From a virus (lineage: Duplodnaviria; Heunggongvirae; Uroviricota; Caudoviricetes), in the IMG/VR virus record IMGVR_UViG_2534682170_000012: a stretch of DNA of 28,108 nucleotides. One strand, written 5' to 3'. The notes under the pieces were generated by a model. The model was not told the DNA's origin. It made no database searches and saw only the letters and a list, made by a program, of their open reading frames with translations. A program made the position numbers and the translations under genes. This document shows positions 1 through 28,108 of this stretch, piece by piece; position 1 is the stretch's first letter, and the number at the start of each line of letters is the position of its first letter.

Positions 1-1002
1 TTACCCTCTATTGTCAAAAGGGTTTAATTCAACAGCAGCCTCTAAATGACCCGGAGCAAAATGCGCATAACGCATAGTCATTTTTATATCGCTATGCCCC
101 AGTATTTTTTGCAACACAAGAATATTTCCGCCCCGCATCATAAAATGACTAGCAAACGTGTGACGTAGCACATGAGTTAATTGCCCATCAGGGAGCTCTA
201 TCTTCGCTCTCTTAATTGCAGCGTCAAAAGCCTCATAACATGGTGAAAATAGCGCTCCTCGTTTTTTAGGAAGCATAGCCTGCAATTGAGGTGAAATCGG
301 TACAGTGCGGTTCTTCTTTCCTTTAGTTTTAACAAATGTGATTCGACCGGGCAGTACTTGAGATTGCTTTAATCCTTCTGCTTCACTCCACCGAGCACCA
401 GTCGCAAGCCCAATACGGACAACAACCCCCAAATCTTTATTCCGTGACTCATCACACGCAATCAAAAGGCGTTCAATCTCATCTACATACAGAAACGCCA
501 GCTCCTTTTCTTCCTCACGAAACTTGCGAATTCCAGTCAGGGGGTTTTCACCAGACCACTCCCCAAGGCGCTTCAGTTCGGCAAAAACAGCATGTAGATA
601 TGACTGCTCGCGATTAACGGTTGCTTCACTAAGTTTTTTCTTCCCCTTGGGATTCCATTCTCCTGATAGCCTTCTTTCCCGATAAGTAGCAAACATATTT
701 TTGTCAAACTGAGAAGCAAATGGATCTCCCAGCCTAGAACAAATCGCCTCAAGTTTGACTTTGCGCTCTGCACCAGAGGACAAGGTTTTGCCGTACATCT
801 CAAACCAACGAGCAATCAACTCAGAAAGACGAGGACCAGAACCATCTTGAAACTCGTCTCCAACTCTACTATTCATTAAACGGCGCTCATAAGAGAGCGC
901 CTCACTTTTTGTCGCAAACTGTTTACGAATGCGTTTTCCCGATGCTCCGTAGGGATAACATTCGCAAAGCCATTTACCTGATGGAATCTTACGAACCGAC
1001 AT
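1..1002 (-). CDS. int: Tyrosine site-specific integrase, P2/186 family
   Basis: 333 aa ORF with stop codon at positions 1-3. C-terminal catalytic region HVLRHTFASHFMMRGGNILVLQKILGHSDIKMTMRYAHF is typical of tyrosine recombinases (R..H..R..Y). N-terminus resembles P2-type integrases. Confidence 0.9.
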   Translation of the reverse strand: MSVRKIPSGKWLCECYPYGASGKRIRKQFATKSEALSYERRLMNSRVGDEFQDGSGPRLSELIARWFEMYGKTLSSGAERKVKLEAICSRLGDPFASQFDKNMFATYRERRLSGEWNPKGKKKLSEATVNREQSYLHAVFAELKRLGEWSGENPLTGIRKFREEEKELAFLYVDEIERLLIACDESRNKDLGVVVRIGLATGARWSEAEGLKQSQVLPGRITFVKTKGKKNRTVPISPQLQAMLPKKRGALFSPCYEAFDAAIKRAKIELPDGQLTHVLRHTFASHFMMRGGNILVLQKILGHSDIKMTMRYAHFAPGHLEAAVELNPFDNRG

Positions 1003-10400: not shown

Positions 10401-10428
10401 TGCACAATAGTGCACAAATTTGCACAAT
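10401..10428. repeat. Three direct TGCACAA repeats at 10-bp phasing upstream of the cargo operon; a fourth copy at 10493-10499
   Basis: TGCACAA at 10401, 10411 and 10421, read directly. Possible operator or packaging-recognition element. Confidence 0.3.
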
Positions 10429-13649: not shown

Positions 13650-13803
13650 TGCTCCCCCTGAGTAATTACAGGAAGATTACCCGCGCGCGAAACCGTTCTC
13701 CTTAACCCCCTGTTCTGACTGTTTTCTTACAACAAAAGCCCTTTGTATCAGCCTGTTACGCTTTGCCATCATGACTGAAGAACCAGTCAGAGGGGCAAAA
13801 ACT

Positions 13804-14640
13804 ATGGCTAATGAAAAAAAGACATCCCGCAAAAAGTTTCGCGTGGCTGTCTCCGGTGTAACGGCAGACGGGCGCGAAATCAACGGCGACATGCTGAAAG
13901 CTGCCGCCACCAGTTATAACCCGTCCGTTTATGGTGCACGTGTGAATATTGAGCACATCTTGTCACCACTCCCCGGTAGCGAGTTTTCCGCTATGGGCGA
14001 TGTTGTGGGGTTGAGCACCGAAGACATAACCGATGGCCCGCTGGCAGGTCGCACGGCACTGTATGCCGAAATTGAGCCGACCGCTCGCATGATGTCCCTG
14101 CTTAACGATGGTAAAAAAATATACTCCAGTATTGAGCTGGAACCACAGTCAACCATCACGGGAGGCCCTTACCTGCGCGGGCTGGCAATGACCGACACCC
14201 CCGCCAGCCTGGGCACGGAACGTCTGGCCTTTGCGGCACAACAACGTATGCAACTGATGACATTCAACTGTCAGCAGGGAGACGTGGCGATGTTTACCGC
14301 CGCTATGGAGTCAGAACTTATCGAACTCACCGAACAACGTCAGGAAGAAGGCACCCAGTGGTTTAACCGCGTTATGGGGATTATTGGCCGTGGCCGCAAA
14401 GCGGATGACGCCAGTTTCTCCCGTATTCAGGAAGCGGTGGAAGGTGTCGCAACGTCACAGGCCGACATTATCGACCGTTTTAATGCGCTGGAAACCCGCC
14501 ATCAGCAGGACAGCCAGAAAATCACTTTACTGACCACAGAGCTGACAGCACTGAAGGAAAAACTGCGCACGCAGGACGGCGATCCGCAGAACCGGTTCAC
14601 CGCAACGGGCGCAGCCTCCGATCAACTGGCTGACTTCTGA
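13804..14640 (+). CDS. O: Capsid scaffolding protein, P2 gpO family
   Basis: Start taken at MANEKKTSRKKFRVAVSG (GAGGGG RBS) rather than the ORF-track start at 13771. The VYG.R.N.EH and GLA.TD.PASLGTE segments match remembered gpO. Confidence 0.85.
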   Translation: MANEKKTSRKKFRVAVSGVTADGREINGDMLKAAATSYNPSVYGARVNIEHILSPLPGSEFSAMGDVVGLSTEDITDGPLAGRTALYAEIEPTARMMSLLNDGKKIYSSIELEPQSTITGGPYLRGLAMTDTPASLGTERLAFAAQQRMQLMTFNCQQGDVAMFTAAMESELIELTEQRQEEGTQWFNRVMGIIGRGRKADDASFSRIQEAVEGVATSQADIIDRFNALETRHQQDSQKITLLTTELTALKEKLRTQDGDPQNRFTATGAASDQLADF

Positions 14641-14663
14641 TAAGACAAAGGAGCAATTTTTTT

Positions 14664-15716
14664 ATGAATCTGGTGATGTCAGATATTACCCGCAACAAGC
14701 TGGGTTGCTATATGGCGCAGCAGGCGTCGCTTAACAACATCCCGGTATCTGCACTGGTATCGCGATTTACCGTGGAACCCTCGGTGCAGCAGCGTTTTGA
14801 AAACGCAGTAAAGGAGAGCACTGAATTTACAAAAAAAATTAACGTGTTCGGTGTGACCGACCAGAAAGGCGAAAAAATCCTCCTGGACACCACCGGGCCG
14901 ATTGCGCGCACGAATACCAGTTATGACGGCACAAAACGCCGTAACCCGAATAACGTGGTTGATCTGAAAAACCGCAAATATCAGTGCGAACAGGTGAACT
15001 ACGACACGTTTATTTCGTATCCGCAGCTTGATGCCTGGGCGGCACACCCTGATTTTCAGTCACGCGTCAGCACACAGATTGCCCGGCAGGTGGCGCTTGA
15101 CCGCATCATGATCGGTTTCAACGGCACGTCTCACGCAGATGAGTCCAACTTCAGCACCAACAAGCTGCTTCAGGACGTTAACGTGGGATGGCTGGAGCAC
15201 ATCAGAACCGACGCCAGCGAGCGCGTAATGAATGACGTGACGCTGACCTCCCGCAACATGGACAACACCGTGGCGCACGCGGGTAAGTATGCGAACGCTG
15301 ATGCACTGGTACAGGACGCGCGCTCATCCCTGCTGGATGAATGGCACAAGGAAGCTGACGACCTCGTGGTGATTATGGGGCGCAACCTGTTTAACTCGCT
15401 GCGTCTGCCCGTGCTGAACAGCATCAGCGGCCAGAATCCCAATGCGGAATTACTTGCCGGACAGCTCATCCTGTCATCGCGCGCCATTGGCGGGCTGGAT
15501 GTATTCCTTGCGCCGTTCTTCCCGGATTCAACGATGCTGATCACCTCGTTCAATAACCTGTCGATTTACTGGCAGAAAGGAACAATGCGTCGCCTGATGA
15601 AAGACGAGCCGGAATACAACCGCATCGCCACCTACCAGTCCATCAATGACGCTTATGTCGTTGAAGACTATGGCAAGTGCGCGATGGTCACTGGCCTGAA
15701 GTTCGCCGACAGCTAA
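14664..15716 (+). CDS. N: Major capsid protein, P2 gpN family
   Basis: 350 aa; FTVEPSV, GEKI, IMIGFNG and LQDVNVGWL segments match remembered gpN; AAGGAG RBS. Confidence 0.88.
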   Translation: MNLVMSDITRNKLGCYMAQQASLNNIPVSALVSRFTVEPSVQQRFENAVKESTEFTKKINVFGVTDQKGEKILLDTTGPIARTNTSYDGTKRRNPNNVVDLKNRKYQCEQVNYDTFISYPQLDAWAAHPDFQSRVSTQIARQVALDRIMIGFNGTSHADESNFSTNKLLQDVNVGWLEHIRTDASERVMNDVTLTSRNMDNTVAHAGKYANADALVQDARSSLLDEWHKEADDLVVIMGRNLFNSLRLPVLNSISGQNPNAELLAGQLILSSRAIGGLDVFLAPFFPDSTMLITSFNNLSIYWQKGTMRRLMKDEPEYNRIATYQSINDAYVVEDYGKCAMVTGLKFADS

Positions 15717-15761
15717 TCAACTCACGGCGGGCATCATGCCCGCCTGTAACGGAGAGAAAAA

Positions 15762-16562
15762 ATGATTACTCCTGCACAGCAACACTGGCAGAACGTGATG
15801 GCACAGCGCGCAGGCCGGGCGAATGAAGGCGTGGACCACGCCGCGCGTACCGCGCATGAAGAGGTGCTGTATCGTCTGCGTCTGGCACAGGCCCGACTTA
15901 AGGGGGTACAGGCCAGAAGCGCGAAAGCCGCCATCAAAAAAGAGTTGTTGCCGGACTTTTCCGGCTGGATTGAGGGAACGCTGGAGGCTGACGGCGGGCA
16001 GCAGGATGAAGTGATTGCCACGCTGATGGTGTGGGCAATTGACTGCGGCGATCTTCCGCTTGCGCTGCGTATTGGTGCGTATGTGGTCCGTCACAACCTC
16101 ATCATGCCGGATAACTTTGGCCGTACTGCTGCCACGGTACTGACCGAAGAAATCTGCAACCCGGTACTGACGCAGGCCGGGACGGATGCCGACGCGGATT
16201 TGTCCGCCTTTATCGAACCACTGGACACACTTTGGGAAATTGTCGCCAACCAGGATATGCCGGACGAAGTGCGAGCCAAATTATGCAAGGCGTGCGCCTT
16301 TGCCCGCCGTAGCCTGAGCGATGCGGACAGCATGGCCTCATCACTGAAGCTGCTGCGCGAAGCGATGCACCTGAACCCGAACGCAGGTGTGAAACGCGAG
16401 ATTGCAACCCTTTCCCGCGCTCTGAAAAAAGCCGATTCCGCAGCCGCACCAGAAGATGCCAGCACACCACAGGCGCAGAACGAAAGCAGCAAAAGTAAAA
16501 AGACAACGCGGAAGCCTGCAACACGAAAAACCACCGCGACGCAGAAGGCGAAGCGCGGTTAA
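15762..16562 (+). CDS. M: Terminase small (endonuclease) subunit, P2 gpM family
   Basis: 266 aa; ELLPDF, MPDEVRAKL and AGVKREI segments and the basic K/R-rich C-terminus match gpM. Confidence 0.85.
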   Translation: MITPAQQHWQNVMAQRAGRANEGVDHAARTAHEEVLYRLRLAQARLKGVQARSAKAAIKKELLPDFSGWIEGTLEADGGQQDEVIATLMVWAIDCGDLPLALRIGAYVVRHNLIMPDNFGRTAATVLTEEICNPVLTQAGTDADADLSAFIEPLDTLWEIVANQDMPDEVRAKLCKACAFARRSLSDADSMASSLKLLREAMHLNPNAGVKREIATLSRALKKADSAAAPEDASTPQAQNESSKSKKTTRKPATRKTTATQKAKRG

Positions 16563-16663
16563 CGACTGACCCCGTCAGCGGGCGGCGTGCGCGGTGTTCC
16601 GGTTTGACTCCGTGACCGTTTACACCGCGCACCCACCGCCCGATTTTTTCAGGAGTGAACCCC

Positions 16664-17158
16664 ATGAGTATGGTTGCCAGAACCAACCCCGGACCCGCAG
16701 AGGACGACATCACCGATACCGATGATGGTGATACCCGTATTTCAGCGGGTGCATTCTGGCCGGATATTGTGCTGCGTGAGCTGCGTCTGGCGGTACGACT
16801 GCCGGGGCGCGTGACCACCTCCCGCCTGCTGCATACCGCCACCGGGGCGGTGGCTCACGTTACCCGCGAGCTGGAAGCATGGCAGCAGGAACAGCAGGCG
16901 GCTGGCCATCAGACGCTGGCCGATGTTCCGGCACCCGTAATTAACGGAGAAAGCGTCAATCTCTGGCACTGGCGCAATGCCGTTTATACCGCCACACGCG
17001 CCCTGATTCTGGAGCGTTACCGCGATGCGGACACAACGGATAAGGGCGACCGCCGGGCGGACGCACTGGATATACAGACATCGGATTTGTGGCGCGATGT
17101 GAGCTGGGCCATCTCTGACATTCTGCGCCGCCCGCGAATTTTTGCGGAGTTGTGCTGA
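16664..17158 (+). CDS. L: Head completion/stabilisation protein, P2 gpL family
   Basis: AFWPDI, LAEVPAP.INGESVN and ERYRD segments match gpL. Start taken at the ATG at 16664 (AGGAG RBS at 16651-16655). Confidence 0.85.
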   Translation: MSMVARTNPGPAEDDITDTDDGDTRISAGAFWPDIVLRELRLAVRLPGRVTTSRLLHTATGAVAHVTRELEAWQQEQQAAGHQTLADVPAPVINGESVNLWHWRNAVYTATRALILERYRDADTTDKGDRRADALDIQTSDLWRDVSWAISDILRRPRIFAELC

Positions 17159-17358
17159 TGAAAGTGAAGGCACTGGAAGGCGACACCGTGGATTCGCTCT
17201 GTTTCCGGTACTACGGCACGACGCAGGGCGTCACCGAAAAGGTGCTGGATGCCAACCCCGGACTCTGTCAGCAGGTATTTCTGGACGCCGGGCAGGACGT
17301 GGAGATGCCGGAGCCGGAGAAGAAGAAACGAGAAATGATTCAGTTGTGGGGGGAGTAG
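17158..17358 (+). CDS. X: Tail protein, P2 gpX family
   Basis: ALEGDTVDSLCFRYYG...ANPGL matches gpX; ATG overlaps the gpL stop. Confidence 0.8.
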   Translation: MKVKALEGDTVDSLCFRYYGTTQGVTEKVLDANPGLCQQVFLDAGQDVEMPEPEKKKREMIQLWGE

Positions 17359-17360
17359 CA

Positions 17361-17684
17361 GTGAGCACCATTCAAACAGGGATCACAGAGCAGGTTATTG
17401 CGTGGCTCTTTGACCACCTGCCAACGGTGTATGCAGTAGGCGCGGCAGTCAGCATTTCCGCGCTGATGAGTCTTTATGACGGACGAACACTGGTTCAGAC
17501 CGTAACGGGATCGCTGGCGTGCGGCGTTCTTGCCATGGCCGTGGCCGGGTCGTTGCGCTTCTTCGGGTTTCCTGAAGATGCCGTGACGTTTATCGGCGCA
17601 TCAATCGGTTTTATGGGCGCAGAGAAAGCACGCGACAAGGTTATTGCGGCCTTTAATCGCAGGGGGAAGGAGAAGGACGAATGA
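17361..17684 (+). CDS. Putative holin
   Basis: GTG start directly after the gpX stop; about 107 aa with hydrophobic helices (AVGAAVSISALMSLY, LACGVLAMAVAGSL) and a charged C-terminus. Immediately upstream of the endolysin. Confidence 0.6.
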   Translation: MSTIQTGITEQVIAWLFDHLPTVYAVGAAVSISALMSLYDGRTLVQTVTGSLACGVLAMAVAGSLRFFGFPEDAVTFIGASIGFMGAEKARDKVIAAFNRRGKEKDE

Positions 17685-18073
17685 GCAACACATTTAAATT
17701 CAGCAGCCGGAGCGAAAAGAATTTGCAGGGCGTAAATCCTGATCTGGTGAAAGTGACCCGACGGGCACTGGAAATTTCGGAAGTGGATTTTGGTATCACC
17801 GAAGGGTTGCGCAGCCGTTACCGCCAGAAGCAACTTGTGGCCACAGGTAAGAGCCAGACCATGAACAGCCGCCACCTTACGGGACATGCCGTGGATGTTG
17901 TGGCTTATATCGGCAGCCAGGTGTCATGGGAATGGCCGCTGTACGAAAAAATCGCAGCAGCATTCAGACAGGCCAGCCGGGAGCTGAATATTCCGGTGGA
18001 ATGGGGCGGCGACTGGAAGACCCTGAAAGACGGACCGCATTTTCAGTTACCACACGGAGTCTATCCGGCATGA
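17681..18073 (+). CDS. Endolysin, peptidase M15-like (L-alanyl-D-glutamate peptidase type)
   Basis: 130 aa; SRHLTGHAVDV and WGGDW motifs are typical of zinc peptidase M15 phage endolysins. Lysis-cassette position. Confidence 0.75.
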   Translation: MSNTFKFSSRSEKNLQGVNPDLVKVTRRALEISEVDFGITEGLRSRYRQKQLVATGKSQTMNSRHLTGHAVDVVAYIGSQVSWEWPLYEKIAAAFRQASRELNIPVEWGGDWKTLKDGPHFQLPHGVYPA

Positions 18074-18477
18074 AGCTCTGGCCCACGCTGGGTGTCGCTT
18101 TCCTTCTGATTGCCGCATGGGGAACATCCATGCGTCTGTCATGGTCGCTGGGCCGGGAGAACGCCAGAAACGAAGCGCAGGCCAGCACCCTGAAACGTAC
18201 CGCCGACACCCTGAATATCATTAGCGCCGGGGTACAGGATATGCAGCAGGTGCTGGCGCAACTCCGCGTGGAAAATCAGCAACGCAATCAGGACGGAGAG
18301 GCAAGACGTGAACAGCTACGCAACGATATTGCAAAAGATGAATGCGCCCACGCTTTGCCTGACGCTCGTTTTACTGACAGGCTGCGCAGGCACGCAGAAC
18401 GCGCCACGGCCAGCGCCGTCAGTCCGGCTTATACCGCAGACGCTGACCATACCGGTAACGCCTCCCCCCTTCCCTGA
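18070..18477 (+). CDS. Spanin inner-membrane subunit (LysB/Rz-like)
   Basis: ATG overlaps the endolysin stop; N-terminal TM LWPTLGVAFLLIAAWG followed by a charged coiled-coil-like region. The ORF-track start at 17926 is rejected. Confidence 0.6.
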   Translation: MKLWPTLGVAFLLIAAWGTSMRLSWSLGRENARNEAQASTLKRTADTLNIISAGVQDMQQVLAQLRVENQQRNQDGEARREQLRNDIAKDECAHALPDARFTDRLRRHAERATASAVSPAYTADADHTGNASPLP

Positions 18478-18628
18478 CACTCCCACATGGGGAAATCTCG
18501 GTATATGGGGCGACCGCCTTCTGGATGCACTGGAAACCTGTAACGCGGATAAACGGGCCATTGAATTACTGGAACAGCGCAGGCTGCAACGACTGAACAA
18601 CGAGGACAACAACCATGCTGAAAACTGA
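18338..18628 (+). CDS. Spanin outer-membrane lipoprotein subunit (LysC/Rz1-like), overlapping the i-spanin in another frame
   Basis: Internal Met followed by lipobox LLTGCAG; Pro-rich mature part; overlapping arrangement as for P2 lysB/lysC. Confidence 0.55.
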   Translation: MNAPTLCLTLVLLTGCAGTQNAPRPAPSVRLIPQTLTIPVTPPPFPDTPTWGNLGIWGDRLLDALETCNADKRAIELLEQRRLQRLNNEDNNHAEN

Positions 18629-19082
18629 TTCCCTGCGTGAAGCCATGACCCGTTCATGCCGATGGTGTCAGGCCAACCCGGAAAAATTCACCATTTTCGT
18701 GGAGAGCGGCAACATTGAAACGACCGGAGAAACGCCCTCGTTTGTTTACCGCTATCAGATGGTGATGTTTGTCATGGATTACGCCGGGGAGCTGGACGAC
18801 CTCACGCTGCCGCTACTGGCGTGGTTATCCGAAAATCAGCCACAGTTGTTGCTCAATCCGGAGCGTAATCAGGACATCAAATTTTCCGCCGTTATCAATG
18901 ACGATGACAGCGCCGATCTCCTGTTTACGCTCCCCCTGCGGGAACGCGTTCGCATTACGCGCAGCAGTCAGGGTACACCGCAGGCAGAACACCTGCCAGA
19001 GCCAAAACCCCGTCTGCCCTCTTCCGAAGGCGACTGGTCGCATGTATTCCAGGATGTGACGTGGGGTGAAAGCGATGGATAA
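18615..19082 (+). CDS. R: Tail completion protein, P2 gpR family
   Basis: MLKTDSLR...VPVLAWL-like segment (LPLLAWLSENQP) matches gpR. Confidence 0.8.
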   Translation: MLKTDSLREAMTRSCRWCQANPEKFTIFVESGNIETTGETPSFVYRYQMVMFVMDYAGELDDLTLPLLAWLSENQPQLLLNPERNQDIKFSAVINDDDSADLLFTLPLRERVRITRSSQGTPQAEHLPEPKPRLPSSEGDWSHVFQDVTWGESDG

Positions 19083-19710
19083 GGCATTCACCCGTGTGGA
19101 TGAAACCTTTGAGGCCATCCGCGACAGCCTGAATCAGCAGGTCATCAATAACATCGCCAGAAAGCTGGCACAGGATTTACGCCGCGCCCAGCAGGCACGT
19201 ATCCGGTCACAGAAAGCGCCGGACGGGACCGCGTGGACACCTCGCAGACGCCGCGTAACCCGGATACAGGAGCGCATTCGCTTTATCTGGAATAACGAAG
19301 CACGCACGCTGAAAAACTGGCATCACGACACGGGGAAATACGGGCGAACCATTACCGGGTGGGATGAGGATAAAAACAATATCCGCACGTTTTACCGGGA
19401 TGACATCGACCGTTTTCTGGAAATACGCACCCGGCGCATCAACCAGGACAGCACAAAGCGCGTCCCCATGTTCGTAAAACTGCGCACCGCCCGCTACCTG
19501 AAAGCCCGTGCAGATGCTTCCGGTGTGACGGTGGGTTACAGCGGCGTGGCCGCACGTATTGCACGCGTTCATCAGTTCGGTGAGCGCGATCAGGTTGCGC
19601 CGGGCATTTTCACCGATTACCCGGTACGTGAGCTGCTGGGTATCAGCCAGGCAGATGAGCGCCTGATTTATAACACGGTGCTGGGTCGGATTGCGGAGGC
19701 TGTACGGTGA
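19066..19710 (+). CDS. S: Tail completion / virion morphogenesis protein, P2 gpS position
   Basis: 214 aa ORF between R and V; assigned by position and size. Start could be the ATG at 19075. Confidence 0.65.
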   Translation: MKAMDKAFTRVDETFEAIRDSLNQQVINNIARKLAQDLRRAQQARIRSQKAPDGTAWTPRRRRVTRIQERIRFIWNNEARTLKNWHHDTGKYGRTITGWDEDKNNIRTFYRDDIDRFLEIRTRRINQDSTKRVPMFVKLRTARYLKARADASGVTVGYSGVAARIARVHQFGERDQVAPGIFTDYPVRELLGISQADERLIYNTVLGRIAEAVR

Positions 19711-20288
19711 GCGCAGAACTCATGCGACTGCTGAGCAATATCATCCGTACCGGGATCATCTCTGAAGTTGATGAGAAGTCCTGGCGCGTGCGCGTTCGCA
19801 GCGGCGGACTGGAAACAGGCTGGCTGCGCTGGAACACCACGCGCGCGGGAGCCTTCAATGTGTGGCTGCCGCCATCACCCGGCGAACAGGTGGTAATTGC
19901 CTGCATTGGCGGCAACCCGGAAACCGCCATGATAATTGGCAGCCTGTGGAGTGATGCCAGTCCGCCCCCCGGCAAAAGCCTGAAAGAAATCGTGGTCAGC
20001 GCGCCGGACGGCGCGGTGTTCCGCTACGACGCGGACGCAGGCGCGCTGAGCGCCAGCGGCATGAAAACAGCCACCCTGCAGGCATCCGTCAGCGTGACAC
20101 TGGACGCGCCCGTCGTGGAATGCACAGACCTTCTGAGAACAGCGACGCTTGACGTCACAAAAGGGGGAAAGATGAGCGGCAATATCACGCACAGCGGCGG
20201 CGATTTCACCTCAAACGGCATCACAGTGCATACGCATAAACACGGTGGCGTGAAAGGCGGCAGCGATTCGACAGGAGGCCCGCAGTGA
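19707..20288 (+). CDS. V: Baseplate spike/assembly protein, P2 gpV family
   Basis: IRTGII, GEQV, PDGAV and HTHKH segments match gpV; GTG start overlaps the S stop. Confidence 0.88.
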   Translation: MSAELMRLLSNIIRTGIISEVDEKSWRVRVRSGGLETGWLRWNTTRAGAFNVWLPPSPGEQVVIACIGGNPETAMIIGSLWSDASPPPGKSLKEIVVSAPDGAVFRYDADAGALSASGMKTATLQASVSVTLDAPVVECTDLLRTATLDVTKGGKMSGNITHSGGDFTSNGITVHTHKHGGVKGGSDSTGGPQ

Positions 20289-20635
20289 CAACCCGCTACA
20301 CAGGAATGAATCCGGACGGGACGGGAAACCTGAACGATATGGAGCACCTGAAACAGTCAGTCAGGGACATCCTGACCACCCCGCTGGCAAGCCGGGTTAT
20401 GCGACGGGAATATGGCAGCCTTGTGCCTGATTTGATTGACGAACCCATGAATAACACCACGCGTCTGCAATGCATGAGTGCTGCCGTGATTGCGCTGACA
20501 CGATGGGAACCCCGCATTGCCCTGGATGCCATCGACGTTGTCTGGAAGGCAGGAGGCCGCGCCGGGGTGACGCTGTCGGGCACTGTCATGCAGACCATGC
20601 AGAATGTTGAATTAACCATCACGCTAAGGGAGTAA
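20285..20635 (+). CDS. W: Baseplate protein, P2 gpW family
   Basis: MTTRYTGMN...SRVMRREYGSL matches gpW (MTARYLGMN...SRVMRRDYGSL). Confidence 0.88.
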   Translation: MTTRYTGMNPDGTGNLNDMEHLKQSVRDILTTPLASRVMRREYGSLVPDLIDEPMNNTTRLQCMSAAVIALTRWEPRIALDAIDVVWKAGGRAGVTLSGTVMQTMQNVELTITLRE

Positions 20636-20638
20636 ATC

Positions 20639-21535
20639 ATGCCCGCCGTTGACCTTTCACAGTTACCGGACCCCGCCATCATCGCGGAGCCTGACTTTGA
20701 GGCAATTCTGGCTGACACAAAGGCCATGATGATTGCGGCTTATCCCGCCGAACAGCGTGAAGCCGTCTCCGCCGCGCTGGAGCTGGAATCGGAACCCCTG
20801 AACGTTATCGCCCAGACAACAGCGTTTCGTGAAATGCTGTTACGCCAGCGGGTCAATGAGGGTGCACGCGCCTGCATGTTAAGCCACAGCGCCGGGACAG
20901 ACCTGGACAACCTCGCGGGCAATATGAACACAAAGCGCCTGGTTATCACTCCGGCAACGAATACCACCGACGCGGTGATGGAAAGCGACACCTCGCTGAG
21001 ACTGCGGGCGCAACGGGCGTACGACGGCCTGAGTGTTGCTGGCCCGTCAGGTGCATACGAGTATTTTGCCCGCAGCGCCAGCGGTCTGGTGCGTGATGCG
21101 CGGGCTATCAGTCCGTCTCCGGCAAATGTGACGGTTTCCATCCTGTCCACTGAAGGCGACGGCACAGCAACGGAGGCGTTGCTTAATACCGTTCGCGCCG
21201 TTCTGAATGCAGAGGATACCCGCCCGGTGGCCGACCGCCTGACCGTACAGAGTGCCAGAATCGTGACATGGCGGCTGAATGCAAAACTGTACTTTTACCC
21301 CGGCCCGGAATCCGAACCTATTCTGGCCGCGGCGGAATCGTCGTTCAGCAAGTGGCTGGCTGAGCAGGGGCTTATCGGTCAGGACGTGGCGTTATCCGCC
21401 ATTGCTGCCGCACTGCATGTGCACGGTGTGCAACGCGTGGAGATAATCGAACCCACACAGAATATGGCCATCAGCGACATACAGGCGGCGCGCTGTGAGT
21501 CGTTCACCATCAGCGAAGGTGGGCGCAATGAGTAA
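20639..21535 (+). CDS. J: Baseplate protein, P2 gpJ family
   Basis: 298 aa; LESEPL, RPVADR(L)TVQSA, YPGPESEPI and GVQRVE segments match gpJ. Confidence 0.88.
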   Translation: MPAVDLSQLPDPAIIAEPDFEAILADTKAMMIAAYPAEQREAVSAALELESEPLNVIAQTTAFREMLLRQRVNEGARACMLSHSAGTDLDNLAGNMNTKRLVITPATNTTDAVMESDTSLRLRAQRAYDGLSVAGPSGAYEYFARSASGLVRDARAISPSPANVTVSILSTEGDGTATEALLNTVRAVLNAEDTRPVADRLTVQSARIVTWRLNAKLYFYPGPESEPILAAAESSFSKWLAEQGLIGQDVALSAIAAALHVHGVQRVEIIEPTQNMAISDIQAARCESFTISEGGRNE

Positions 21536-22058
21536 TTCGCTGTTACCACCATCAGCCAGCAATTTCATGCGTTGCGCCGAAGCTGTCGGAGCGCGCATTA
21601 CAAACATCCCGGTAGACCTCAACACGCTGTGGTCACCGGATACCTGCCCGGTGCATCTGCTGCCTTATCTCGCCTGGGCATTTTCCGTTGACCGCTGGGA
21701 TCGCAACTGGCCGGAAGAGACAAAGCGACAGGTTATTCGTGATGCATGGCTGATACACCGACACAAAGGGACCATCAGCGCACTGCGCCGGGCCATTGAG
21801 CCGCTGGGATACCTCATTCGCGTGTCTGAGTGGTGGGAGTTCGGCGGAGAACCGGGAACATTTACCGTTGAAGTCGGCACGCTGGACAGTGGCGTGACGG
21901 AGGAAATGTATCTGGAAATGGAGCGGTTGATTGCTGATGCCCGCCCGGTCAGCCGCCACATGACAGGGCTGAATATCATTCAGGAAATTCCGGGGGATAT
22001 TTTCGCAGCGGCGGCAACTTATGACGGTGAAGTTATTACCATTTATCCAGGCGATTAA
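21528..22058 (+). CDS. I: Baseplate/tail protein, P2 gpI family
   Basis: Start taken at MSNSLLPP, overlapping the J stop; PDTCP..LLP.LAWAFSVDRWD and HKGTI segments match gpI. Confidence 0.85.
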   Translation: MSNSLLPPSASNFMRCAEAVGARITNIPVDLNTLWSPDTCPVHLLPYLAWAFSVDRWDRNWPEETKRQVIRDAWLIHRHKGTISALRRAIEPLGYLIRVSEWWEFGGEPGTFTVEVGTLDSGVTEEMYLEMERLIADARPVSRHMTGLNIIQEIPGDIFAAAATYDGEVITIYPGD

Positions 22059-22060
22059 GC

Positions 22061-24226
22061 ATGAGTACCACAACACGAAAATTTAAAACCGTTATCACCG
22101 ATACGGGTGCAAAAAAATTAGCTCAGGCAGCCGCGCCAGATGGTAAGCCTGTCCGCCTGACTCATATGGCCGTGGGCGACGGTGGCGGCGCGTTGCCCAC
22201 ACCAGACAGTAAGCAGACCCGTCTGGTGCATGAGGTGTGGCGACACACTGTTAATCGCGTCATCCTGGACGCAACACATCAGAACCGCATTATTGCGGAG
22301 CTGGTTATTCCTCCTGAAACGGGCGGATTCTGGATCCGGGAAATTGGTGTATTTGATGAGCACGGCGATTTAATCGCGGTGGGCAATACTGCCGAAAGTT
22401 ACAAACCAACCGTTGCCGAAGGGTCCGGACGTGCACAAACATTTCGCACTATTCTGACCGTATCCAGCACTGCCACCGTGGCGCTTACCGTGGATAACAC
22501 CATGGTGATGGCCACAGTGGATTACGTGGATGACAAACTGAAAGAGCATGAACAGTCACGACGTCACCCGGACGCCTCGCTGACCGCAAAAGGCTTTGTT
22601 CAACTCAGTAGCGCCACTAACAGCGATTCTGAAACGCTGGCTGCAACGCCGAAAGCGGTTAAGGCCGCGTATGACCTGGCTAACGGAAAATATACCGCTC
22701 AGGACGCCACGACGGCACGAAAAGGGATAGTCCAGCTCAGCAGTGCAACCAACAGCACGTCTGAAACGCTGGCAGCGACACCAAAAGCGGTTAAGGCGGT
22801 AATGGATGAAACGAACAAGAAAGCCCCATTAAACAGCCCGGCACTGACCGGAACGCCAACAACACCAACTGCACAACAGGGAACGAATAATACCCAAATC
22901 GCAAGCACGGCTTTTGTTATGGCCGCGATTGCCGCACTTGTAGACTCTTCACCTGACGCACTGAACACGCTGAACGAGCTGGCGGCGGCGCTGGGCAACG
23001 ACCCGAATTTTGCGACCACCATGACTAACGCGCTTGCGGGTAAGCAACCGAAAGATGCCACCCTGACGGCGCTGGCCGGGCTTGCTACTGCGGCAGACAG
23101 GTTTCCGTATTTTACGGGGAATGATGTTGCCAGTCTGGCAACCCTGACAGAAGTCGGGCGGGATATTCTTGCGAAATCGACCGTTGCCGCTGTTATCGAA
23201 TACCTCGGTTTACAGGAAACGGTAAACAGGGCTGGTAACGCCGTGCAAAAAAATGGCGATACCTTGTCCGGTGGGCTTACTTTTGAAAATGACTCAATCC
23301 TTGCCTGGATTCGAAATACTGACTGGGCGAAGATTGGATTTAAAAATGATGCCGATGGTGACACTGATTCATACATGTGGTTTGAAACAGGCGACAACGG
23401 CAATGAATATTTCAAATGGAGAAGCAAACAAAGCACCACAACAAAAGACCTGATGAATCTTAAATGGGATGCTTTGTCTGTCCTTGTTAAAGCCCTTTTC
23501 AGCAGTGAAGTAAAAATATCGACAGTCAATGCACTAAGGATATTTAATTCATCTTTTGGTGCTATTTTTCGCCGTTCTGAAGAATGTCTTCATATCATCC
23601 CTACCCGAGAAAATGAGGGGGAAAATGGCGATATAGGGCCACTACGCCCCTTTACGCTTAATCTCAGAACTGGTCGCATAACTATGGGGCATGGTCTGGA
23701 TGTTACAGGAGATATATTTGCAAACCGTTTTGCAATTAACAGTAGTACCGGCATGTGGATTCATATGCGTGACCAGAATGTTATTTTGGGACGCAATGCG
23801 GTATCCACCGATGGTGCACAGGCATTACTTCGTCAGGACCATGCTGATCGCAAATTTATGATTGGTGGGCTGGGAAATAAGCAATTTGGCATCTACATGA
23901 TTAATAACTCAAGGACAGCTAATGGCACCGATGGTCAGGCGTACATGGATAATAACGGGAACTGGCTTTGCGGCTCGCAAGTTATTCCCGGCAACTATGG
24001 CAATTTTGATTCCAGATATGTGAAAGATGTTCGACTTGGTTCACAGAAATATTATGGAGTGAACAACTGGCAAACATGGAATTTCCAGTGCCCGTCAGGT
24101 CATGTATTGTCTGGTATTAATGTTCAGGATACAGGGTCCAACTCTGCCGATAATATAGCGGGCGTTTATTGCAGACCCGTTCAAAAGTATATAAATGGCA
24201 CCTGGTATAATATAGCGAGCGTTTAA
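22061..24226 (+). CDS. H: Tail fibre protein, P2 gpH family, with variable C-terminal receptor-binding segment
   Basis: The N-terminal two-thirds is near-identical in long stretches to remembered P2 gpH ([23 protein letters not shown] repeats, [30 protein letters not shown]). The C-terminal third diverges and ends [11 protein letters not shown]. Confidence 0.9.
23193..23218. repeat. gix/hix-like recombination site, left, inside the tail-fibre gene at the constant/variable junction
   Basis: TTATCGAATACCTCGGTTTACAGGAA matches the reverse complement of the right site at 24 of 26 positions. Confidence 0.7.
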
Positions 24227-24227
24227 T

Positions 24228-24755
24228 ATGATGCACTTAAAGAACATAAAAGCGGGTAATGCTAAAACACTGGAACAGTATGAGTTAACAAAGAAGCACG
24301 GAGTCATCTGGCTTTACTCTGAGGACGAAAAAAACTGGTATGAGGAAGTGAAAAACTTTCAGCCAGACACCATAAAGATTGTTTACGATAAAAATCAGAT
24401 TATAGTCGCTATCACCAGAGATGCTTCAACGCTTAATCCTGAAGGTTTTAGCGTTGTTGAGGTTCCTGATATTACCTCCAACCGACGTGCTGACGACTCA
24501 GGTAAATGGATGTTTAAGGATGGTGCTGTGGTTAAACGGATTTATACGACAGATGAGCAGCAACAACAGGCAGAATCACAAAAGGCCGCGTTACTTTCCG
24601 AAGCAGAAAGCGTTATTCAGCCACTGGAACGCGCCGTCAGGCTGAATATGGCGACGGATGAGGAACGCGCACGACTGGAGTCATGGGAACGCTACAGTGT
24701 TCTGGTCAGCCGTGTGGATACGGCAAATCCTGAATGGCCACAAAAGCCTGAATAA
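24228..24755 (+). CDS. G: Tail fibre assembly chaperone (P2 gpG / Tfa family)
   Basis: 175 aa directly after H; N-terminal region matches the inverted paralogue at 24784-25284. Confidence 0.85.
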
Positions 24756-24760
24756 AAATT

Positions 24761-24780
24761 AAGGCCCGCTATCGGGCCTT
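24761..24780. terminator. Bidirectional hairpin terminator between the convergent fibre-chaperone genes
   Basis: Perfect inverted repeat AAGGCCCG-ctat-CGGGCCTT flanked by A/T-rich runs. Confidence 0.5.
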
Positions 24781-24783
24781 GTC

Positions 24784-25284
24784 TCATTCAGGTTGTTCGG
24801 GAAACGTTACTGGCAGGCTGGAAGTGTCTGTAGATTCGACTTTCTGCGCAAAGAGCATCCACTCTGTTAATTTTTGTTTATTCTCGTCGGAAATGATGCC
24901 CAGCCGTAGCTGTGAGTCCCATAGCTGGGTTTTATCCCTGACGAGCTGTAGCAGGCTTTGCTTTTCATTTTCCGCCTGCTGCCTCTGCTCTTCCTCGGTA
25001 TAAGTTCGCTTTACCACTACGCCATCTTTGAACATCCATTTACCCGAAATGTCAGCACGGCGATTTGCTGTAATATCAGGTAATTCAACGACGCTTGCGC
25101 CTTCCGGATTAATTGCTGAAACATCCTTTTCAATACAAATAATAACGCCGTTATGGCCATAGACCATTTTCAAAGTGTCTGGCTGGAAATTCTTTTGTTC
25201 CTCATACCAGTTTTTTCCATCATCTGAATAAAGCCATTTGATGTTAAATTGCTTTGTTAGCTGGTATTGCTCTTTCGTTCTCAA
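24784..25284 (-). CDS. Alternative tail fibre assembly chaperone (Tfa'), inverted orientation
   Basis: 166 aa; clearly paralogous to G ([31 protein letters not shown]). Confidence 0.8.
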
Positions 25285-25339
25285 AATCGGTGGAGCTGCA
25301 TGACAAAGTCATCGGGCATTATCTGAACATAAAACACTA

Positions 25340-26311
25340 TCAATAAGTTGGAGTCATTACCCCCGCGTTATACCACGTCCCATTAATGCAATACTGAATT
25401 GGCCTTGCCTGAGTTGTATCAATTAATTCATCACGGTTTCCGTTAACTGAACCCGTAACGACATAACCTGACCTGTCAGACCAGCCGGGGCCTTTCCATG
25501 TCTGAACAGATGACAGACCGCCAAGGCGAATACCTGTAATAAACCTTGAGTTACATTCTGCCTGCGTATATGCACCAACATCCCCCGCAGAGGGTTTGCG
25601 TGTTGTGGTGTAAAACTCTGACCAGTTAGCTTCAAAGCCATAACCATCACGCGCTGAACGATAAAAAATACCGCCGTTCCTGTAATTCACGCGGAACTGT
25701 ACAGCAGGGCAACTCCCCGCATTCATATTGAAGTGGAGGATTAATGTCGATGCACCACTGATATCTGCATCATAAACACCGCTATTCCAGTTCCAGCCAA
25801 CAGCTTTATCATTTGCGACCCTGCGTCCTGTTTGCCCTAAAGCAAATGCAGGCTGCTGGTTTTTCGTGTTGTAGTCTCGTCGCCAGCCAGGAGCGTAAGC
25901 ATCACCATGATTAATATAAGTGAATTGAGCGTTAGTAATTCCGCCACCGCTGGACGTGCTCGGCGTAGTAACGCGTATGGTCATTGCGCCGCGAGTGCCA
26001 ATAACTTCCACCACAGCACCTGCAAGACAAATATTTCCGCAACCTGTATCTGTAATAACCTTATTATTTGCATAAGCCCATGAGCCTTTGCACATCCAGT
26101 AAGGATGGTTAAATGCCCCCTGACTCTCCAGCCACGAAATAAATTGCGCAGTTGTCCAGACCTGACTATCGCCACCAATATTCAGCCATGCGCTATATGC
26201 GCGGCAGGCACCAATGTTTTTGGTGAAGGTATCTTTTCCCGGAATATCTGCGCCGTTCTGGTTTTTCTGTAATGCGCCAGAAGCCTGATTTACCGTTTCC
26301 TGTAAACCGAG
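25340..26311 (-). CDS. Alternative tail-fibre C-terminal segment, start-less; would be fused in frame to H after inversion
   Basis: Hand translation of the minus strand from the right gix site gives LGLQETVN, then a novel segment ending [15 protein letters not shown]. The codon just upstream is a stop, so it has no own start. The ORF-track ATG at 26095 is internal. Confidence 0.7.
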
Positions 26312-26322
26312 GTTTTAGATAA
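26297..26322. repeat. gix/hix-like recombination site, right
   Basis: TTCCTGTAAACCGAGGTTTTAGATAA; one mismatch to the Mu gix sequence as I remember it; inverted relative to the left site. Confidence 0.7.
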
Positions 26323-26376
26323 TGGCGGTTTCTGGCCTGCATGGCATGATTTGTGCTTTTGGACGGGAGATTCAGC

Positions 26377-26703
26377 GTGCTGATTGGCTATGTAAGGGTA
26401 TCAACAAATGACCAGAATACAGACCTGCAACGAAACGCTCTTGTTTGTGCAGGATGTGAACAAATATTTGAAGATAAATTAAGCGGAATAAGGACAGGCC
26501 GACCTGGATTAAAACGTGCTTTAAAGCGCCTTCAAAAAGGTGACGCACTGGTTGTCTGGAAACTGGACTGACTGGGTCACTGTATGCGGCATCTTGTCGT
26601 GCTGGTGGTGGAAGCCTGGAAGAAGTATCGGGTGTTGCTGAACCGTGTTAATACAACAACTGCACCGGATATTGAATGGCCAACAGGACCCATTATCGAA
26701 TAG
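26377..26703 (+). pseudogene. Serine DNA invertase (Gin/Hin/Pin/Cin family) pseudogene: premature stop after about 65 codons, decayed downstream part, C-terminal DNA-binding region missing
   Basis: GTG start with GGGAGA RBS; N-terminus LIGYVRVSTNDQNTDLQRNAL...LVVWKLD matches the invertase catalytic domain (Ser in VRVSTNDQ). In-frame TGA at 26569-26571 where the family has Arg. The same frame then reads [14 protein letters not shown], a degenerate version of LGRSMKHLISLVGE, and ends at TAG 26701-26703. Confidence 0.7.
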
Positions 26704-26714
26704 TGCATTACGAA

Positions 26715-26747
26715 CTGCAGGATATTATATGGGATAATATTCTGCAG
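26715..26747. terminator. Near-perfect 14-bp-arm hairpin (CTGCAGGATATTAT-atggg-ATAATATTCTGCAG) followed by a T-rich run
   Basis: Read directly; lies between the invertase remnant and the 3' end of the diguanylate cyclase gene. Confidence 0.4.
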
Positions 26748-26776
26748 TTTATTGGGGCTGTATTTTAAAAAGGTGT

Positions 26777-28108
26777 TTATTTTGAGTGAGTTATCACCTT
26801 GTTTTTTCCGGTTCTTTTGGCTTGATATAACGCTTTATCGGCATTGACTAACATTTCAGATGGACTGAGATTATTCTCTTTTGAAGTAAAGCAACCAATA
26901 CTGACAGTTATTTTCTCAGGTCCATGCGATAATAATTTTTCCGAGCATTGCTCTTCAATGTTTTTTCTGATTCGCTCTGCAATTGATAGCAAGAGCTTTT
27001 GAGTATTACCTTTAATGATAATACCGAACTCCTCACCGCCTAAGCGCCCTAATATATCCTCTTTCCTGATGGATTTTTTTATTATTCTGGTAACCATTAC
27101 TATGACTTGATCACCCATATGATGCCCCCATTTGTCATTGATGCTTTTGAAATTGTCAATATCTAACATTATTACTGAGAAATCATGGTGTTTTGATATA
27201 TTCTTCAATGAGTCAATAAAGTATCTTCTATTGTATGTATTCGTTAGTGGATCATGAATTGCCATATGATTAGCATGATTTAATTTCCTGAAAACATAAT
27301 ACATGAGTGTTGAAATGATATAAATCATTGATATCAATTCAAGAAATTTTGTCATGTACCATGCAGGATGGGATTTATCAATAAAATACAATAAAATTAG
27401 ATTATTGCATACTGACACTATACTAATAAGTATTATACACAACCATATTTTTGAGTAATTACGTATGCTGATGCATGAGCTGATAAGTAATACAAGCCAA
27501 AATACTGATATTATTTTGGTGTACACGATATTCCACGTCGGCAAATGACGATTCAGCGAGTATTGTATAATATTAAGACTATATTTTATATTGTCACTGC
27601 TTAGATTTTTTGCTACAAACGGAGTAATAAAAAGAATTAATATTGACAAAACAACAATTATTATGTTTCTTTTATCTTCTAAAACACTTTTGTTTTTAAC
27701 ATTGGTGGAATAAACAGCCAGAAAGATTATAGATATAAAGCTGAACTGACGGAATAGATAATATATTGCGATATCATTTGATTTCTGATAGATTGTAGAT
27801 AAATCGTTACCTAACGGAGATAAAGAAATAATAGCCACTTCTAATAAATAATACGTGTTGCTCAAAAACGCGAATGAAAGAATTAAGAGATAACTTTGTC
27901 TCTGATTAGAAACATAGTAAAGCAATAGAAAAATAAAAATCATCAGGTTTATGAAAAAAAGCCCAATAATGAAAACACTATAACTTATTTGTGTTGTTTG
28001 TGTTATGTATATTCCATTATTTGCATGCAGTAACAAAAATATAATAGAGATGCATGAAAATAAAAAGATGAAGATTTTTATTTTTATAGGTACCTGGTTG
28101 ATAATCAT
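26777..28108 (-). CDS. Membrane-bound diguanylate cyclase: multi-pass N-terminal membrane domain plus GGDEF domain (YcdT/DgcT-like architecture)
   Basis: C-terminal GGDEF domain with HDPLTNTYNRRYF, RLGGEEFGIII (GGEEF active-site motif) and DKALYQAKRTGKNKV. N-terminal half is highly hydrophobic and AT-rich. The ORF start codon is the last 3 nt of the window, so the true start may lie beyond it. Confidence 0.8.
   Translation of the reverse strand: MIINQVPIKIKIFIFLFSCISIIFLLLHANNGIYITQTTQISYSVFIIGLFFINLMIFIFLLLYYVSNQRQSYLLILSFAFLSNTYYLLEVAIISLSPLGNDLSTIYQKSNDIAIYYLFRQFSFISIIFLAVYSTNVKNKSVLEDKRNIIIVVLSILILFITPFVAKNLSSDNIKYSLNIIQYSLNRHLPTWNIVYTKIISVFWLVLLISSCISIRNYSKIWLCIILISIVSVCNNLILLYFIDKSHPAWYMTKFLELISMIYIISTLMYYVFRKLNHANHMAIHDPLTNTYNRRYFIDSLKNISKHHDFSVIMLDIDNFKSINDKWGHHMGDQVIVMVTRIIKKSIRKEDILGRLGGEEFGIIIKGNTQKLLLSIAERIRKNIEEQCSEKLLSHGPEKITVSIGCFTSKENNLSPSEMLVNADKALYQAKRTGKNKVITHSK

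What the first reader, a model, noticed from the sequence alone, without database searches (positions are those of the whole stretch)
23193..26322. Mu/P1-type invertible tail-fibre cassette inside a P2-like fibre gene
Inverted gix-like sites at 23193-23218 (inside H, at codons encoding LGLQE) and 26297-26322 bracket a segment with two alternative fibre C-termini and two Tfa chaperones in opposite orientation. Hand translation shows the minus-strand alternative segment is in frame with the site and is preceded by a stop, so it can only be expressed after inversion, which would then read ...[21 protein letters not shown].... P2 itself, as I recall it, lacks an invertase and invertible segment, so this is a mosaic host-range switch.
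Basis: partly seen in the sequence, partly recalled or inferred. Interest (0 to 1): 0.6.

Follow-up and report, generated by a model that had tools for sequence, protein, structure and literature searches.

The report
Mu-type tail-fibre switch, invertase truncated
This is the well-known Mu/P1-type flip-flop DNA segment that lets a phage alternate between two tail-fibre tips, here in a P88-like (P2-family) E. coli prophage; in this window its recombinase gene is only a 64-codon stump, because the right-hand part of the window belongs to a different, degraded prophage locus.

Summary
Two canonical 26-bp gix sites (23193-23218, 26297-26322; 0 expected by chance) bracket Sv-U and U'-Sv' modules.

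The architecture is already known. The segment is 86-92% identical in DNA to the Mu G, D108 and P1/P7 C segments. The whole layout matches phage P88 (Xuanwuvirus). Closed E. coli genomes carry it in both orientations: 41 as Sc-Sv and 69 as Sc-Sv'.

- The invertase ORF is a 64-codon stump fused to a tfa fragment, followed by a DgcX-like cyclase.
- A 90-bp IS1 end at 25272-25361 removes the U' start and changes the Sv' C-terminus.
- Window 25275-28108 is 100% identical to a lambdoid remnant at lambda attB, about 1.2 Mb (K-12 map, from memory) from the prophage's yecA site.

Sister draft assemblies disagree at this join. One has an intact invertase and one shows the segment flipped. I judge the join more likely an assembly artefact (about 55-60%) than a real rearrangement. 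As assembled, the switch cannot flip by itself. Interest is low.

The parts
22061..24226 (+). Tail-fibre gene H in its current state (721 aa). It consists of the P2-type constant part Sc (22061-23192) and the Mu S-type variable part Sv (23219-24226).
   Evidence: ORF. Pfam Phage_tail_fib, Phage_fiber_2 and Gp34_trimer. Residues 378-720 match Mu tail fibre S, PDB 5YVQ, E 2.5e-156, at 69.5% identity. 86% identical to P88 H.
23193..23218 (-). gixL, a 26-bp recombination site inside H. Its reverse complement reads TTCCTGTAAACC GA GGTATTCGATAA.
   Evidence: 2 mismatches to Mu gix, identical to gixL of P88, H1, L007 and MSI001.
24228..24755 (+). U, the tail-fibre assembly chaperone for Sv (175 aa, intact).
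   Evidence: 89.7% identical to Mu U. Identical to U of E. coli O111:H8 8E. Pfam Caudo_TAP.
24784..25284 (-). U', the chaperone for Sv'. It is 5'-truncated: the native start MMHLKNITAGNPKT is lost, and the longest ORF is 166 aa starting at a TTG inside the IS1 fragment.
   Evidence: 95.2% identical to Mu U' over 165 aa. Pfam Caudo_TAP.
25272..25361 (.). Terminal ~90 bp of IS1 (one end only). It replaces ~58 bp across the Sv' stop and U' start. It is also the point where the window changes from the P88-like lineage to the attB-lambda remnant lineage.
   Evidence: 98.9% identical to an annotated IS1. Alignments. SNP map. Window 25275-28108 is 100% identical to remnant loci whose IS1 is full length.
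25340..26296 (-). Sv', the alternative fibre C-terminus. It has no start of its own and is preceded by an in-frame TAA. Its C-terminus is altered to ...NAGVMTPTY instead of ...NAGSI.
   Evidence: 95.9% identical to Mu S'. Matches PDB 8JU3, E 1.5e-211.
26297..26322 (+). gixR, reading TTCCTGTAAACC GA GGTTTTAGATAA.
   Evidence: 1 mismatch to Mu gix.
26377..26571 (+). Invertase stump of 64 codons (VLIGYVRVSTNDQ...VVWKLD*). It keeps the catalytic Ser9 but lacks the rest of the catalytic domain, the E-helix and the HTH domain. Frameshifted homology continues to ~26616. Its first 110 nt are 100% identical to Mu gin, the region where the cis-acting Fis enhancer is expected.
   Evidence: Pfam Resolvase positions 2-73 of 145 only. 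Relatives are 193-195 aa.
26604..26703 (+). 3' fragment of an unrelated tail-fibre assembly gene (...[28 protein letters not shown]), fused to the invertase stump.
   Evidence: RefSeq annotates it as 'tail fiber assembly protein, missing N-terminus' in identical genomes. The coordinates are carried over from that annotation.

Best explanation
What it is: the segment 23193-26322 is a canonical Gin/Cin/Pin-type (Mu G / P1 C) invertible host-range cassette. It belongs to a P88-like (Xuanwuvirus, P2-family) prophage.

How this family works (established, from Mu Gin):
- Invertase dimers bind the two inverted 26-bp gix sites.
- A Fis-bound enhancer in the 5' end of the invertase gene activates a synaptic tetramer.
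- Strands are cut and exchanged at the central GA dinucleotide.
- The 3.1-kb segment flips.

Because gixL lies inside the fibre gene, the constant N-terminal 385 residues are fused either to Sv (co-expressed with chaperone U) or to Sv' (with U'). This changes the receptor-binding tip. Sv resembles the Mu G(+) tip and Sv' the Mu G(-) tip.

State in this window: the cassette is not autonomous.
- The neighbouring invertase is a 64-codon stump.
- The Sv'/U' junction is disrupted by an IS1 end.
- Everything from 25275 rightwards is the sequence of a lambdoid prophage remnant at lambda attB.

Flipping here would therefore need a Din-family invertase supplied in trans. The flipped state would also lack a normally initiated U' chaperone.

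Basis: the sites, frames, homologies, truncation and composite origin are shown. The catalytic mechanism and the enhancer function are inferred from the family.
For: - gix pair with 0 expected by chance, identical to the sites of P88 and closed-genome relatives.
- In-frame fusion in both states.
- 86-92% DNA identity to Mu, D108 and P1/P7 invertible segments, and the same layout as P88.
- Tips match the solved Mu S and S' structures.
- Both orientations of the same cassette occur in closed genomes, 41 versus 69, and in sister assemblies L007 versus L039.
- Invertase stump.
- IS1 fragment.
- Lineage switch at the IS1 fragment, and 100% identity of 25275-28108 to remnant loci.
- First 110 nt of the stump are identical to Mu gin.
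- Gin needs S9 and the E-helix (PMC3575834).
- Inversion in P2-like E. coli prophages has been demonstrated (PMC4272514).
Against: - No direct evidence of inversion for this exact molecule: all three contigs carrying the identical 721-aa fibre are in the same orientation.
- The enhancer position is from memory (Kahmann 1985, Johnson and Simon 1985) and could not be checked in the held literature.
- A trans-acting invertase cannot be seen in the window.
- The window may be a mis-join, so its 'non-autonomous' state may not describe the real chromosome.
Confidence: 0.88

Rival explanations
1. The join in the window is an assembly artefact. In the real genome the P88-like prophage at yecA is complete (Sv'-gixR-intact invertase-tail genes) and flips autonomously. 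The IS1-Sv'-gix-invertase stump-tfa'-dgcX piece is a separate locus at lambda attB. The assembler linked the two through near-identical Sv'/gix/invertase-5' repeats and a contig end that ran into IS1.
For: - The lineage switch falls exactly at a fragment of a multicopy IS.
- The fragment has one end only, and its length differs between sister assemblies: 90 nt, ~53 nt, and 90 nt plus an extra 24-nt deletion. This behaves like contig ends reaching into a repeat. Logan contigs likewise stop 28-29 nt into this IS1.
- In unrelated assemblies the same Sv' abuts a full-length IS1.
- Sister contigs give incompatible arrangements and mosaic P/R SNP patterns.
- Other sister contigs end inside the cassette, at about 23391, 23755 and 26175 (derived coordinates).
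- No closed E. coli genome has the scar or the join.
Against: - The same 90-nt junction occurs in two assemblies, AQBN and AQBO.
- A 213-kb contig (L005) runs through the join into ybhB-bioABFCD.
- Assemblers do not normally invent junction sequence that no read supports.
Confidence: 0.55
2. The join is real. Recombination between the P88-like prophage at yecA and the attB-lambda remnant (IS1-associated, or homologous within the ~97% identical Sv'/gix/invertase-5' repeats) inverted ~1.2 Mb (K-12 map distance, from memory) of chromosome spanning the terminus. This split the prophage and left the cassette next to a dead invertase. The intact invertase, now at the other breakpoint, could still flip the cassette in trans.
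For: - The integrase's attachment site is yecA-tyrP in every place examined, including six sister contigs, while the right arm is the bio locus.
- L033 looks like a reciprocal-type junction: tail genes-invertase-gix-Sv'(R-type)-IS1.
- The remnant with the same truncation occurs in both orientations, 56 versus 97 closed genomes. This implies inversion in trans, or cassette exchange, after the truncation.
Against: - The sister isolates would each need a different recombinant.
- L033 is not the exact reciprocal of the window, because its crossover lies at 26517-26545.
- A 90-nt one-ended IS1 remnant needs an extra deletion event.
- No such arrangement occurs in 5,426 closed genomes.
Confidence: 0.33
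3. The inverted repeats are incidental, and the minus-strand fibre and chaperone genes are decayed duplicates with no switching role.
For: U' and the invertase are damaged in the window.
Against: - The sites are exact gix sites, with 0 expected by chance.
- The frame is preserved.
- Sv' is 95.9% identical to Mu S' with an intact ORF.
- Both orientations are common in relatives.
Confidence: 0.01

Closest known systems
Escherichia phage P88 (KP063541 / NC_026014; Peduoviridae, Xuanwuvirus) and P88-like prophages of E. coli (e.g. O111:H8 strain 8E, WS1933D)
   Same: - Same gene order: V-W-J-I-H(Sc)-gixL-Sv-U-U'-Sv'-gixR-invertase.
- Identical gix sites.
- 97% DNA identity in the baseplate genes and 90% in the cassette for P88; 98.4% for strain 8E.
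   Different: - Relatives have a 195-aa invertase followed by tail genes U, T and E. The window has a 64-codon stump, a tfa fragment and dgcX.
- Relatives have no IS1 fragment at U'/Sv'.
- The P88 paper does not discuss the inversion (PMC5285337).
Phage Mu G segment with Gin (also D108; P1/P7 C segment with Cin; e14 P segment with Pin)
   Same: - 26-bp gix sites with a GA core (1-2 mismatches).
- Sv/U and Sv'/U' modules: Sv' 95.9%, U' 95.2%, U 89.7% and Sv 69.5% amino-acid identity.
- The first 110 nt of the invertase gene are identical.
   Different: - The constant part of the fibre is P2 H-type, not Mu S-type. Homology to Mu starts 7 nt before gixL.
- The invertase is truncated here.
attB-lambda lambdoid prophage remnant carrying dgcX (Richter et al. 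2014, PMC4287979)
   Same: - Window 25275-28108 is 100% identical to this locus in unrelated assemblies.
- 766 closed genomes share the invertase stump-tfa'-cyclase junction.
- The cyclase has MASE4+GGDEF domains and lies next to ybhB-bioA.
   Different: In those genomes the cassette hangs on a lambdoid side-tail-fibre gene or is cut by a full-length IS1, not on a P2-type H gene.

Membership tests
Din-family (Gin/Cin/Pin/Hin) invertible tail-fibre segment | Two 26-bp gix-type sites in inverted orientation with the same asymmetric central dinucleotide | tested here: met
   Sites at 23193-23218(-) and 26297-26322(+), GA core, 2 and 1 mismatches to Mu gix, 0 expected by chance.
Din-family (Gin/Cin/Pin/Hin) invertible tail-fibre segment | One site lies inside the fibre ORF, so a constant N-terminal part is fused in frame to either of two variable C-terminal parts. 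The silent part has no start of its own. | tested here: met
   721-aa and 704-aa products in the two states. In-frame TAA before the silent Sv'.
Din-family (Gin/Cin/Pin/Hin) invertible tail-fibre segment | Two oppositely oriented variable-tip and chaperone gene pairs homologous to Mu S/U and S'/U' | tested here: met
   PDB 5YVQ and 8JU3 matches; identities. Caveat: U' lacks its native start and Sv' has an altered C-terminus.
Din-family (Gin/Cin/Pin/Hin) invertible tail-fibre segment | Adjacent full-length serine invertase (catalytic domain with Ser9, E-helix, C-terminal HTH) | tested here: not met
   Only 64 codons, covering Pfam Resolvase positions 2-73 of 145, with no HTH_7. The feature is met in sister assembly L007 and in P88, H1 and Mu.
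Din-family (Gin/Cin/Pin/Hin) invertible tail-fibre segment | Fis-dependent recombinational enhancer in cis, within the 5' end of the invertase gene | tested here: inconclusive
   The first 110 nt of the stump are 100% identical to Mu gin. Candidate Fis-like sites 48 bp apart are shared with Mu and P88. The enhancer coordinates are from memory only, and no binding test is possible.
Din-family (Gin/Cin/Pin/Hin) invertible tail-fibre segment | Both orientations occur | tested here: met
   Family level: 41 closed genomes Sc-Sv and 69 Sc-Sv'. Same lineage: L007 versus L039. Not shown for the window's own molecule.
P2-family (Peduoviridae, P88-like) prophage | Integrase, gpA replication protein, Q/P/O/N/M/L head genes, lysis genes, R/S, and V/W/J/I/H baseplate and fibre genes in P2 order | tested here: met
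   Pfam annotation of identical contigs. 97% DNA identity to P88 over 19061-22797.
P2-family (Peduoviridae, P88-like) prophage | Tail sheath, tube, E, T, U and D genes completing the virion module | tested here: not met
   Absent from the window: after the invertase stump come a tfa fragment and dgcX. They are present after the invertase in P88, H1, L007, L033 and L039.

The most novel reading that the evidence does not exclude
The join is real. A G-type host-range cassette has been split between two prophages by a ~1.2-Mb chromosomal rearrangement between the yecA P88-like prophage and the attB-lambda remnant. That would leave an 'orphan' switch flipped in trans by an invertase at the distant breakpoint, with sister isolates from one source differing in arrangement. 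This would make G-type cassettes natural substrates for megabase-scale genome flip-flops. The 56-versus-97 orientation split of the remnant that shares one invertase truncation would then be population-level evidence that orphan cassettes keep being inverted in trans.
Probability: 0.3. Interest if true: 0.45.

Novelty: already known. Interest (0 to 1): 0.2.

Why it matters
As a host-range switch it adds nothing new. The same cassette is annotated in phage P88 and in over a hundred closed E. coli genomes, and its mechanism is textbook Gin/Fis recombination.

Its practical value is cautionary. Near-identical invertible cassettes in two prophages of one genome, together with IS1, produce contigs that join loci about 1.2 Mb apart (K-12 map, from memory). 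An apparently 'mosaic' or 'orphan' switch in a draft assembly therefore needs read-level confirmation.

The one point of biological interest comes from the attB-lambda remnant. It carries a single shared invertase truncation yet is found in both orientations. If confirmed, this would indicate that orphan cassettes are still inverted in trans by other invertases in the cell.

Tried and rejected
- Crossover at gixR (site-specific exchange between the two prophages). The five-way alignment suggested this. The finer SNP map rejected it: the window is remnant-type from ~25500 onward, and the switch lies at the IS1 fragment.
- A real, shared IS1 'scar'. This is doubted because its inner boundary differs in three sister assemblies and no closed genome has it.
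- Look-up of the flipped-state 704-aa fibre in public assemblies. I replaced it with DNA searches using flipped-state queries.
- Literature on the Gin enhancer position and on cross-complementation among invertases. The Johnson review is not held and the searches were uninformative, so these points rest on my own knowledge.
- The reciprocal junction in the window's own assembly could not be retrieved, because look-ups are limited to window-encoded proteins.
- Pfam and PADLOC scans of the three AT-rich cargo genes gave no hits.
Full report
**1. Observation**

The repeat finder reports a 67-nt inverted repeat at 78% complementarity, at 23187-23253 / 26262-26328. Its exact 25-nt core lies at 23202-23226 and 26289-26313. 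None is expected in 100 shuffles.

Both sites have the form TTCCTGTAAACC-GA-GGT(T/A)TT(A/C)GATAA. They are identical to the left and right sites of phage P88, of E. coli O111:H8 strain 8E, and of sister assembly L007. Mu has TTCCTGTAAACCGAGGTTTTGGATAA at both ends.

gixL lies in the 721-aa fibre ORF 22061..24226. The minus strand upstream of Sv' reads [24 protein letters not shown]. Inverting the sequence in silico between the cores gives a 704-aa ORF reading ...[21 protein letters not shown]....

**2. What the cassette is**

*Similarity to known segments.* Megablast against phage records shows the 3.1-kb segment is about 89-94% identical to the invertible segments of Mu, D108, SfMu, P1, P7 and D6. 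Over its whole length it is 85.6% identical to Mu.

*Layout.* The whole arrangement is baseplate V, W, J, I; fibre H; chaperone; inverted chaperone; inverted fibre tip; DNA invertase. This is the arrangement of phage P88 (Peduoviridae, Xuanwuvirus), of Xuanwuvirus P884B11 and of Citrobacter phage phiSM.

*Mosaic boundary.* Homology to Mu starts 7 nt before gixL.

*Fibre tips and chaperones.*

| Part | Closest known | Identity | Structure match |
|---|---|---|---|
| Sv | Mu S | 69.5% | PDB 5YVQ, E 2.5e-156 |
| Sv' | Mu S' | 95.9% | PDB 8JU3, E 1.5e-211 |
| U | Mu U | 89.7% | - |
| U' | Mu U' | 95.2% (retained part) | - |

*Natural flipping.* Forty-one closed E. coli genomes contain the cassette as in the window. 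Sixty-nine contain the fibre gene as a contiguous Sc-Sv' ORF. In strain WS1933D, for example, this ORF is followed by U', inverted U, inverted Sv, the recombinase and the tail genes. Inversion of tail-fibre segments in P2-like prophages of E. coli E2348/69 has been demonstrated by sequencing and PCR (PMC4272514). The architecture is therefore already known, although the P88 paper itself never mentions the invertase.

**3.

(a) *The invertase is a stump.* The ORF at 26377..26571 encodes 64 residues (VLIGYVRVSTNDQ...VVWKLD*). Mu Gin has 193 residues, and P88, H1 and L007 have 195. Pfam matches only positions 2-73 of the 145-position Resolvase model. Alignment shows a frameshift at 26567, a few more recognisable codons, and then fusion to the 3' end of an unrelated tail-fibre-assembly gene. 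A MASE4+GGDEF diguanylate cyclase follows on the minus strand. Gin catalysis needs Ser9 and also the E-helix (PMC3575834). The DNA-binding HTH is absent too. The stump cannot be an active recombinase (inference).

(b) *An IS1 fragment sits at the Sv'/U' junction.* Window 25272-25361 is the terminal ~90 bp of IS1 (98.9% identity). It replaces ~58 bp across the Sv' stop and the U' start. As a result Sv' ends ...NAGVMTPTY instead of ...NAGSI. U' loses its first ~13 codons and its initiation region.

(c) *No tail genes follow the cassette.* Sheath, tube and tape-measure genes are absent here, unlike in P88 and its relatives.

**4. The window is a composite of two loci**

*The two loci.* The prophage integrase (1..1002) lies next to yecA-tyrP-ftnA in every place examined, including six sister contigs. 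The right end of the window continues into ybhB-bioABFCD, the lambda attB region. By my recollection of the K-12 map these loci are about 1.2 Mb apart.

*Where the lineage changes.* SNP mapping gives these results:
- The window is identical to the sister assembly's intact prophage (L007) from 21750 to ~25250.
- The window is identical to the attB-lambda remnant lineage (YSP8-1, MSI001, Z0117) from ~25500 to the end.
- The change of lineage therefore falls at the IS1 fragment.

*Identity to the remnant.* Window 25275-28108, including 87 nt of IS1, is 100% identical to remnant loci of unrelated assemblies (L028, L031, L034). There a full-length IS1 abuts this very Sv'.

*Nature of the remnant.* It is a degraded lambdoid prophage whose side tail fibre carried its own G-type segment. 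The invertase stump-tfa'-cyclase junction is present in 766 of 5,426 closed genomes. The cyclase fits DgcX, described at attB next to lambdoid prophage DNA (PMC4287979).

**5. Is the join real or an artefact?**

The window equals contig AQBN01000036 (L006) at 100% over 12061-28108. The sister assemblies of the same series disagree with one another:

| Assembly (locus) | Arrangement | Calls |
|---|---|---|
| AQBH (L005) | Same join as the window, plus an extra 24-nt deletion | 27, 35 |
| AQBM (L007) | Intact invertase and gpU; only ~53 nt of IS1 | 27, 35 |
| AQBO (L039) | Sc-gixL-Sv'...Sv-gixR-intact invertase-tail genes (flipped state), with the 90-nt IS1 piece | 63, 64 |
| AQBP (L033) | Tail genes-invertase-gix-Sv'-IS1; the invertase switches from remnant-type to prophage-type alleles between 26517 and 26545 | 62, 65 |
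| AQBL, AQBR, AQBI | Contigs end inside the cassette, at about 23391, 23755 and 26175 | derived from 61 |

The SNP patterns are mosaics of the two copies. No closed genome has the IS1 scar or the join.

I read this as the behaviour of an assembler faced with two ~97% identical cassettes, an active inversion and a multicopy IS. I put the probability that the join is artefactual at about 55-60%. The alternative, at about a third, is a real IS1-associated or homology-driven rearrangement between the two prophages. Two facts keep that alternative open. The same 90-nt junction recurs in two assemblies. A 213-kb contig spans the join.

**6. Mechanism**

The Gin-type mechanism is established for this family. 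Invertase dimers bind gixL and gixR. A Fis-bound enhancer in the 5' part of the invertase gene activates the tetramer. Double-strand cleavage and subunit rotation occur at the central dinucleotide. Inversion swaps Sv-U for Sv'-U' behind the constant fibre part.

Shown here:
- competent-looking sites with matching GA cores
- preserved reading frames
- a stump whose first 110 nt are identical to Mu gin
- both orientations in relatives and in sister assemblies L007 and L039

Inferred: catalysis, enhancer function and the receptor specificities.

As assembled, inversion would need an invertase in trans. The attB-lambda remnant, which has one and the same truncation, is found with Sv' next to the stump in 56 closed genomes and with Sv next to it in 97. 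This suggests inversion in trans, or cassette exchange, after the truncation. If the join is an artefact, the real prophage has its own invertase and is an ordinary working switch.

**7. Verdict**

The element is already known. The only unusual aspects are the composite, truncated state and its uncertain reality. Interest 0.2.

Noticed in passing
window 26777-28108 (-): A 443-aa MASE4+GGDEF diguanylate cyclase in 29% GC DNA, next to the prophage remnant and ybhB-bioA. By location and architecture it fits DgcX (PMC4287979). The invertase stump-tfa'-cyclase junction is present in 766 of 5,426 closed E. coli genomes.
   Followed up: partly
window 7794-10417 (-): Three AT-rich genes (about 35% GC; ORFs of 269, 114 and 491 aa as listed) lie between the gpA replication gene and the portal gene of the P2-like prophage. 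That position is a known cargo hotspot of P2-like phages (my own knowledge). None has a Pfam or PADLOC hit. The 269-aa protein recurs at the same position in P2-like prophages with different integrases.
   Followed up: partly
attB-lambda remnant in closed genomes (e.g. L004, L014-L016): The remnant cassette, with one shared invertase truncation, occurs in both orientations: Sv' next to the stump in 56 genomes and Sv in 97. This implies inversion in trans or cassette exchange after the invertase was lost.
   Followed up: partly
L033 5132-5719 (AQBP01000042): A 195-aa invertase gene whose first ~170 nt carry remnant-type alleles and whose remainder carries prophage-type alleles, with the switch between window-equivalent positions 26517 and 26545. 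This is either gene conversion between the two cassettes or a consensus of collapsed repeats.
   Followed up: no
L040 9281-9867 (E. coli WS1933D, closed genome): In this closed genome the P88-type cassette is in the flipped state and its recombinase gene is annotated as a frameshifted pseudogene. This is another case of a cassette apparently frozen after loss of its invertase.
   Followed up: no
window 22570-22665 and 22702-22797: A 96-nt direct repeat at 76% identity inside the constant part of the fibre gene. It encodes the repeated motif ...[25 protein letters not shown] (Pfam Phage_fiber_2 repeats).
   Followed up: no
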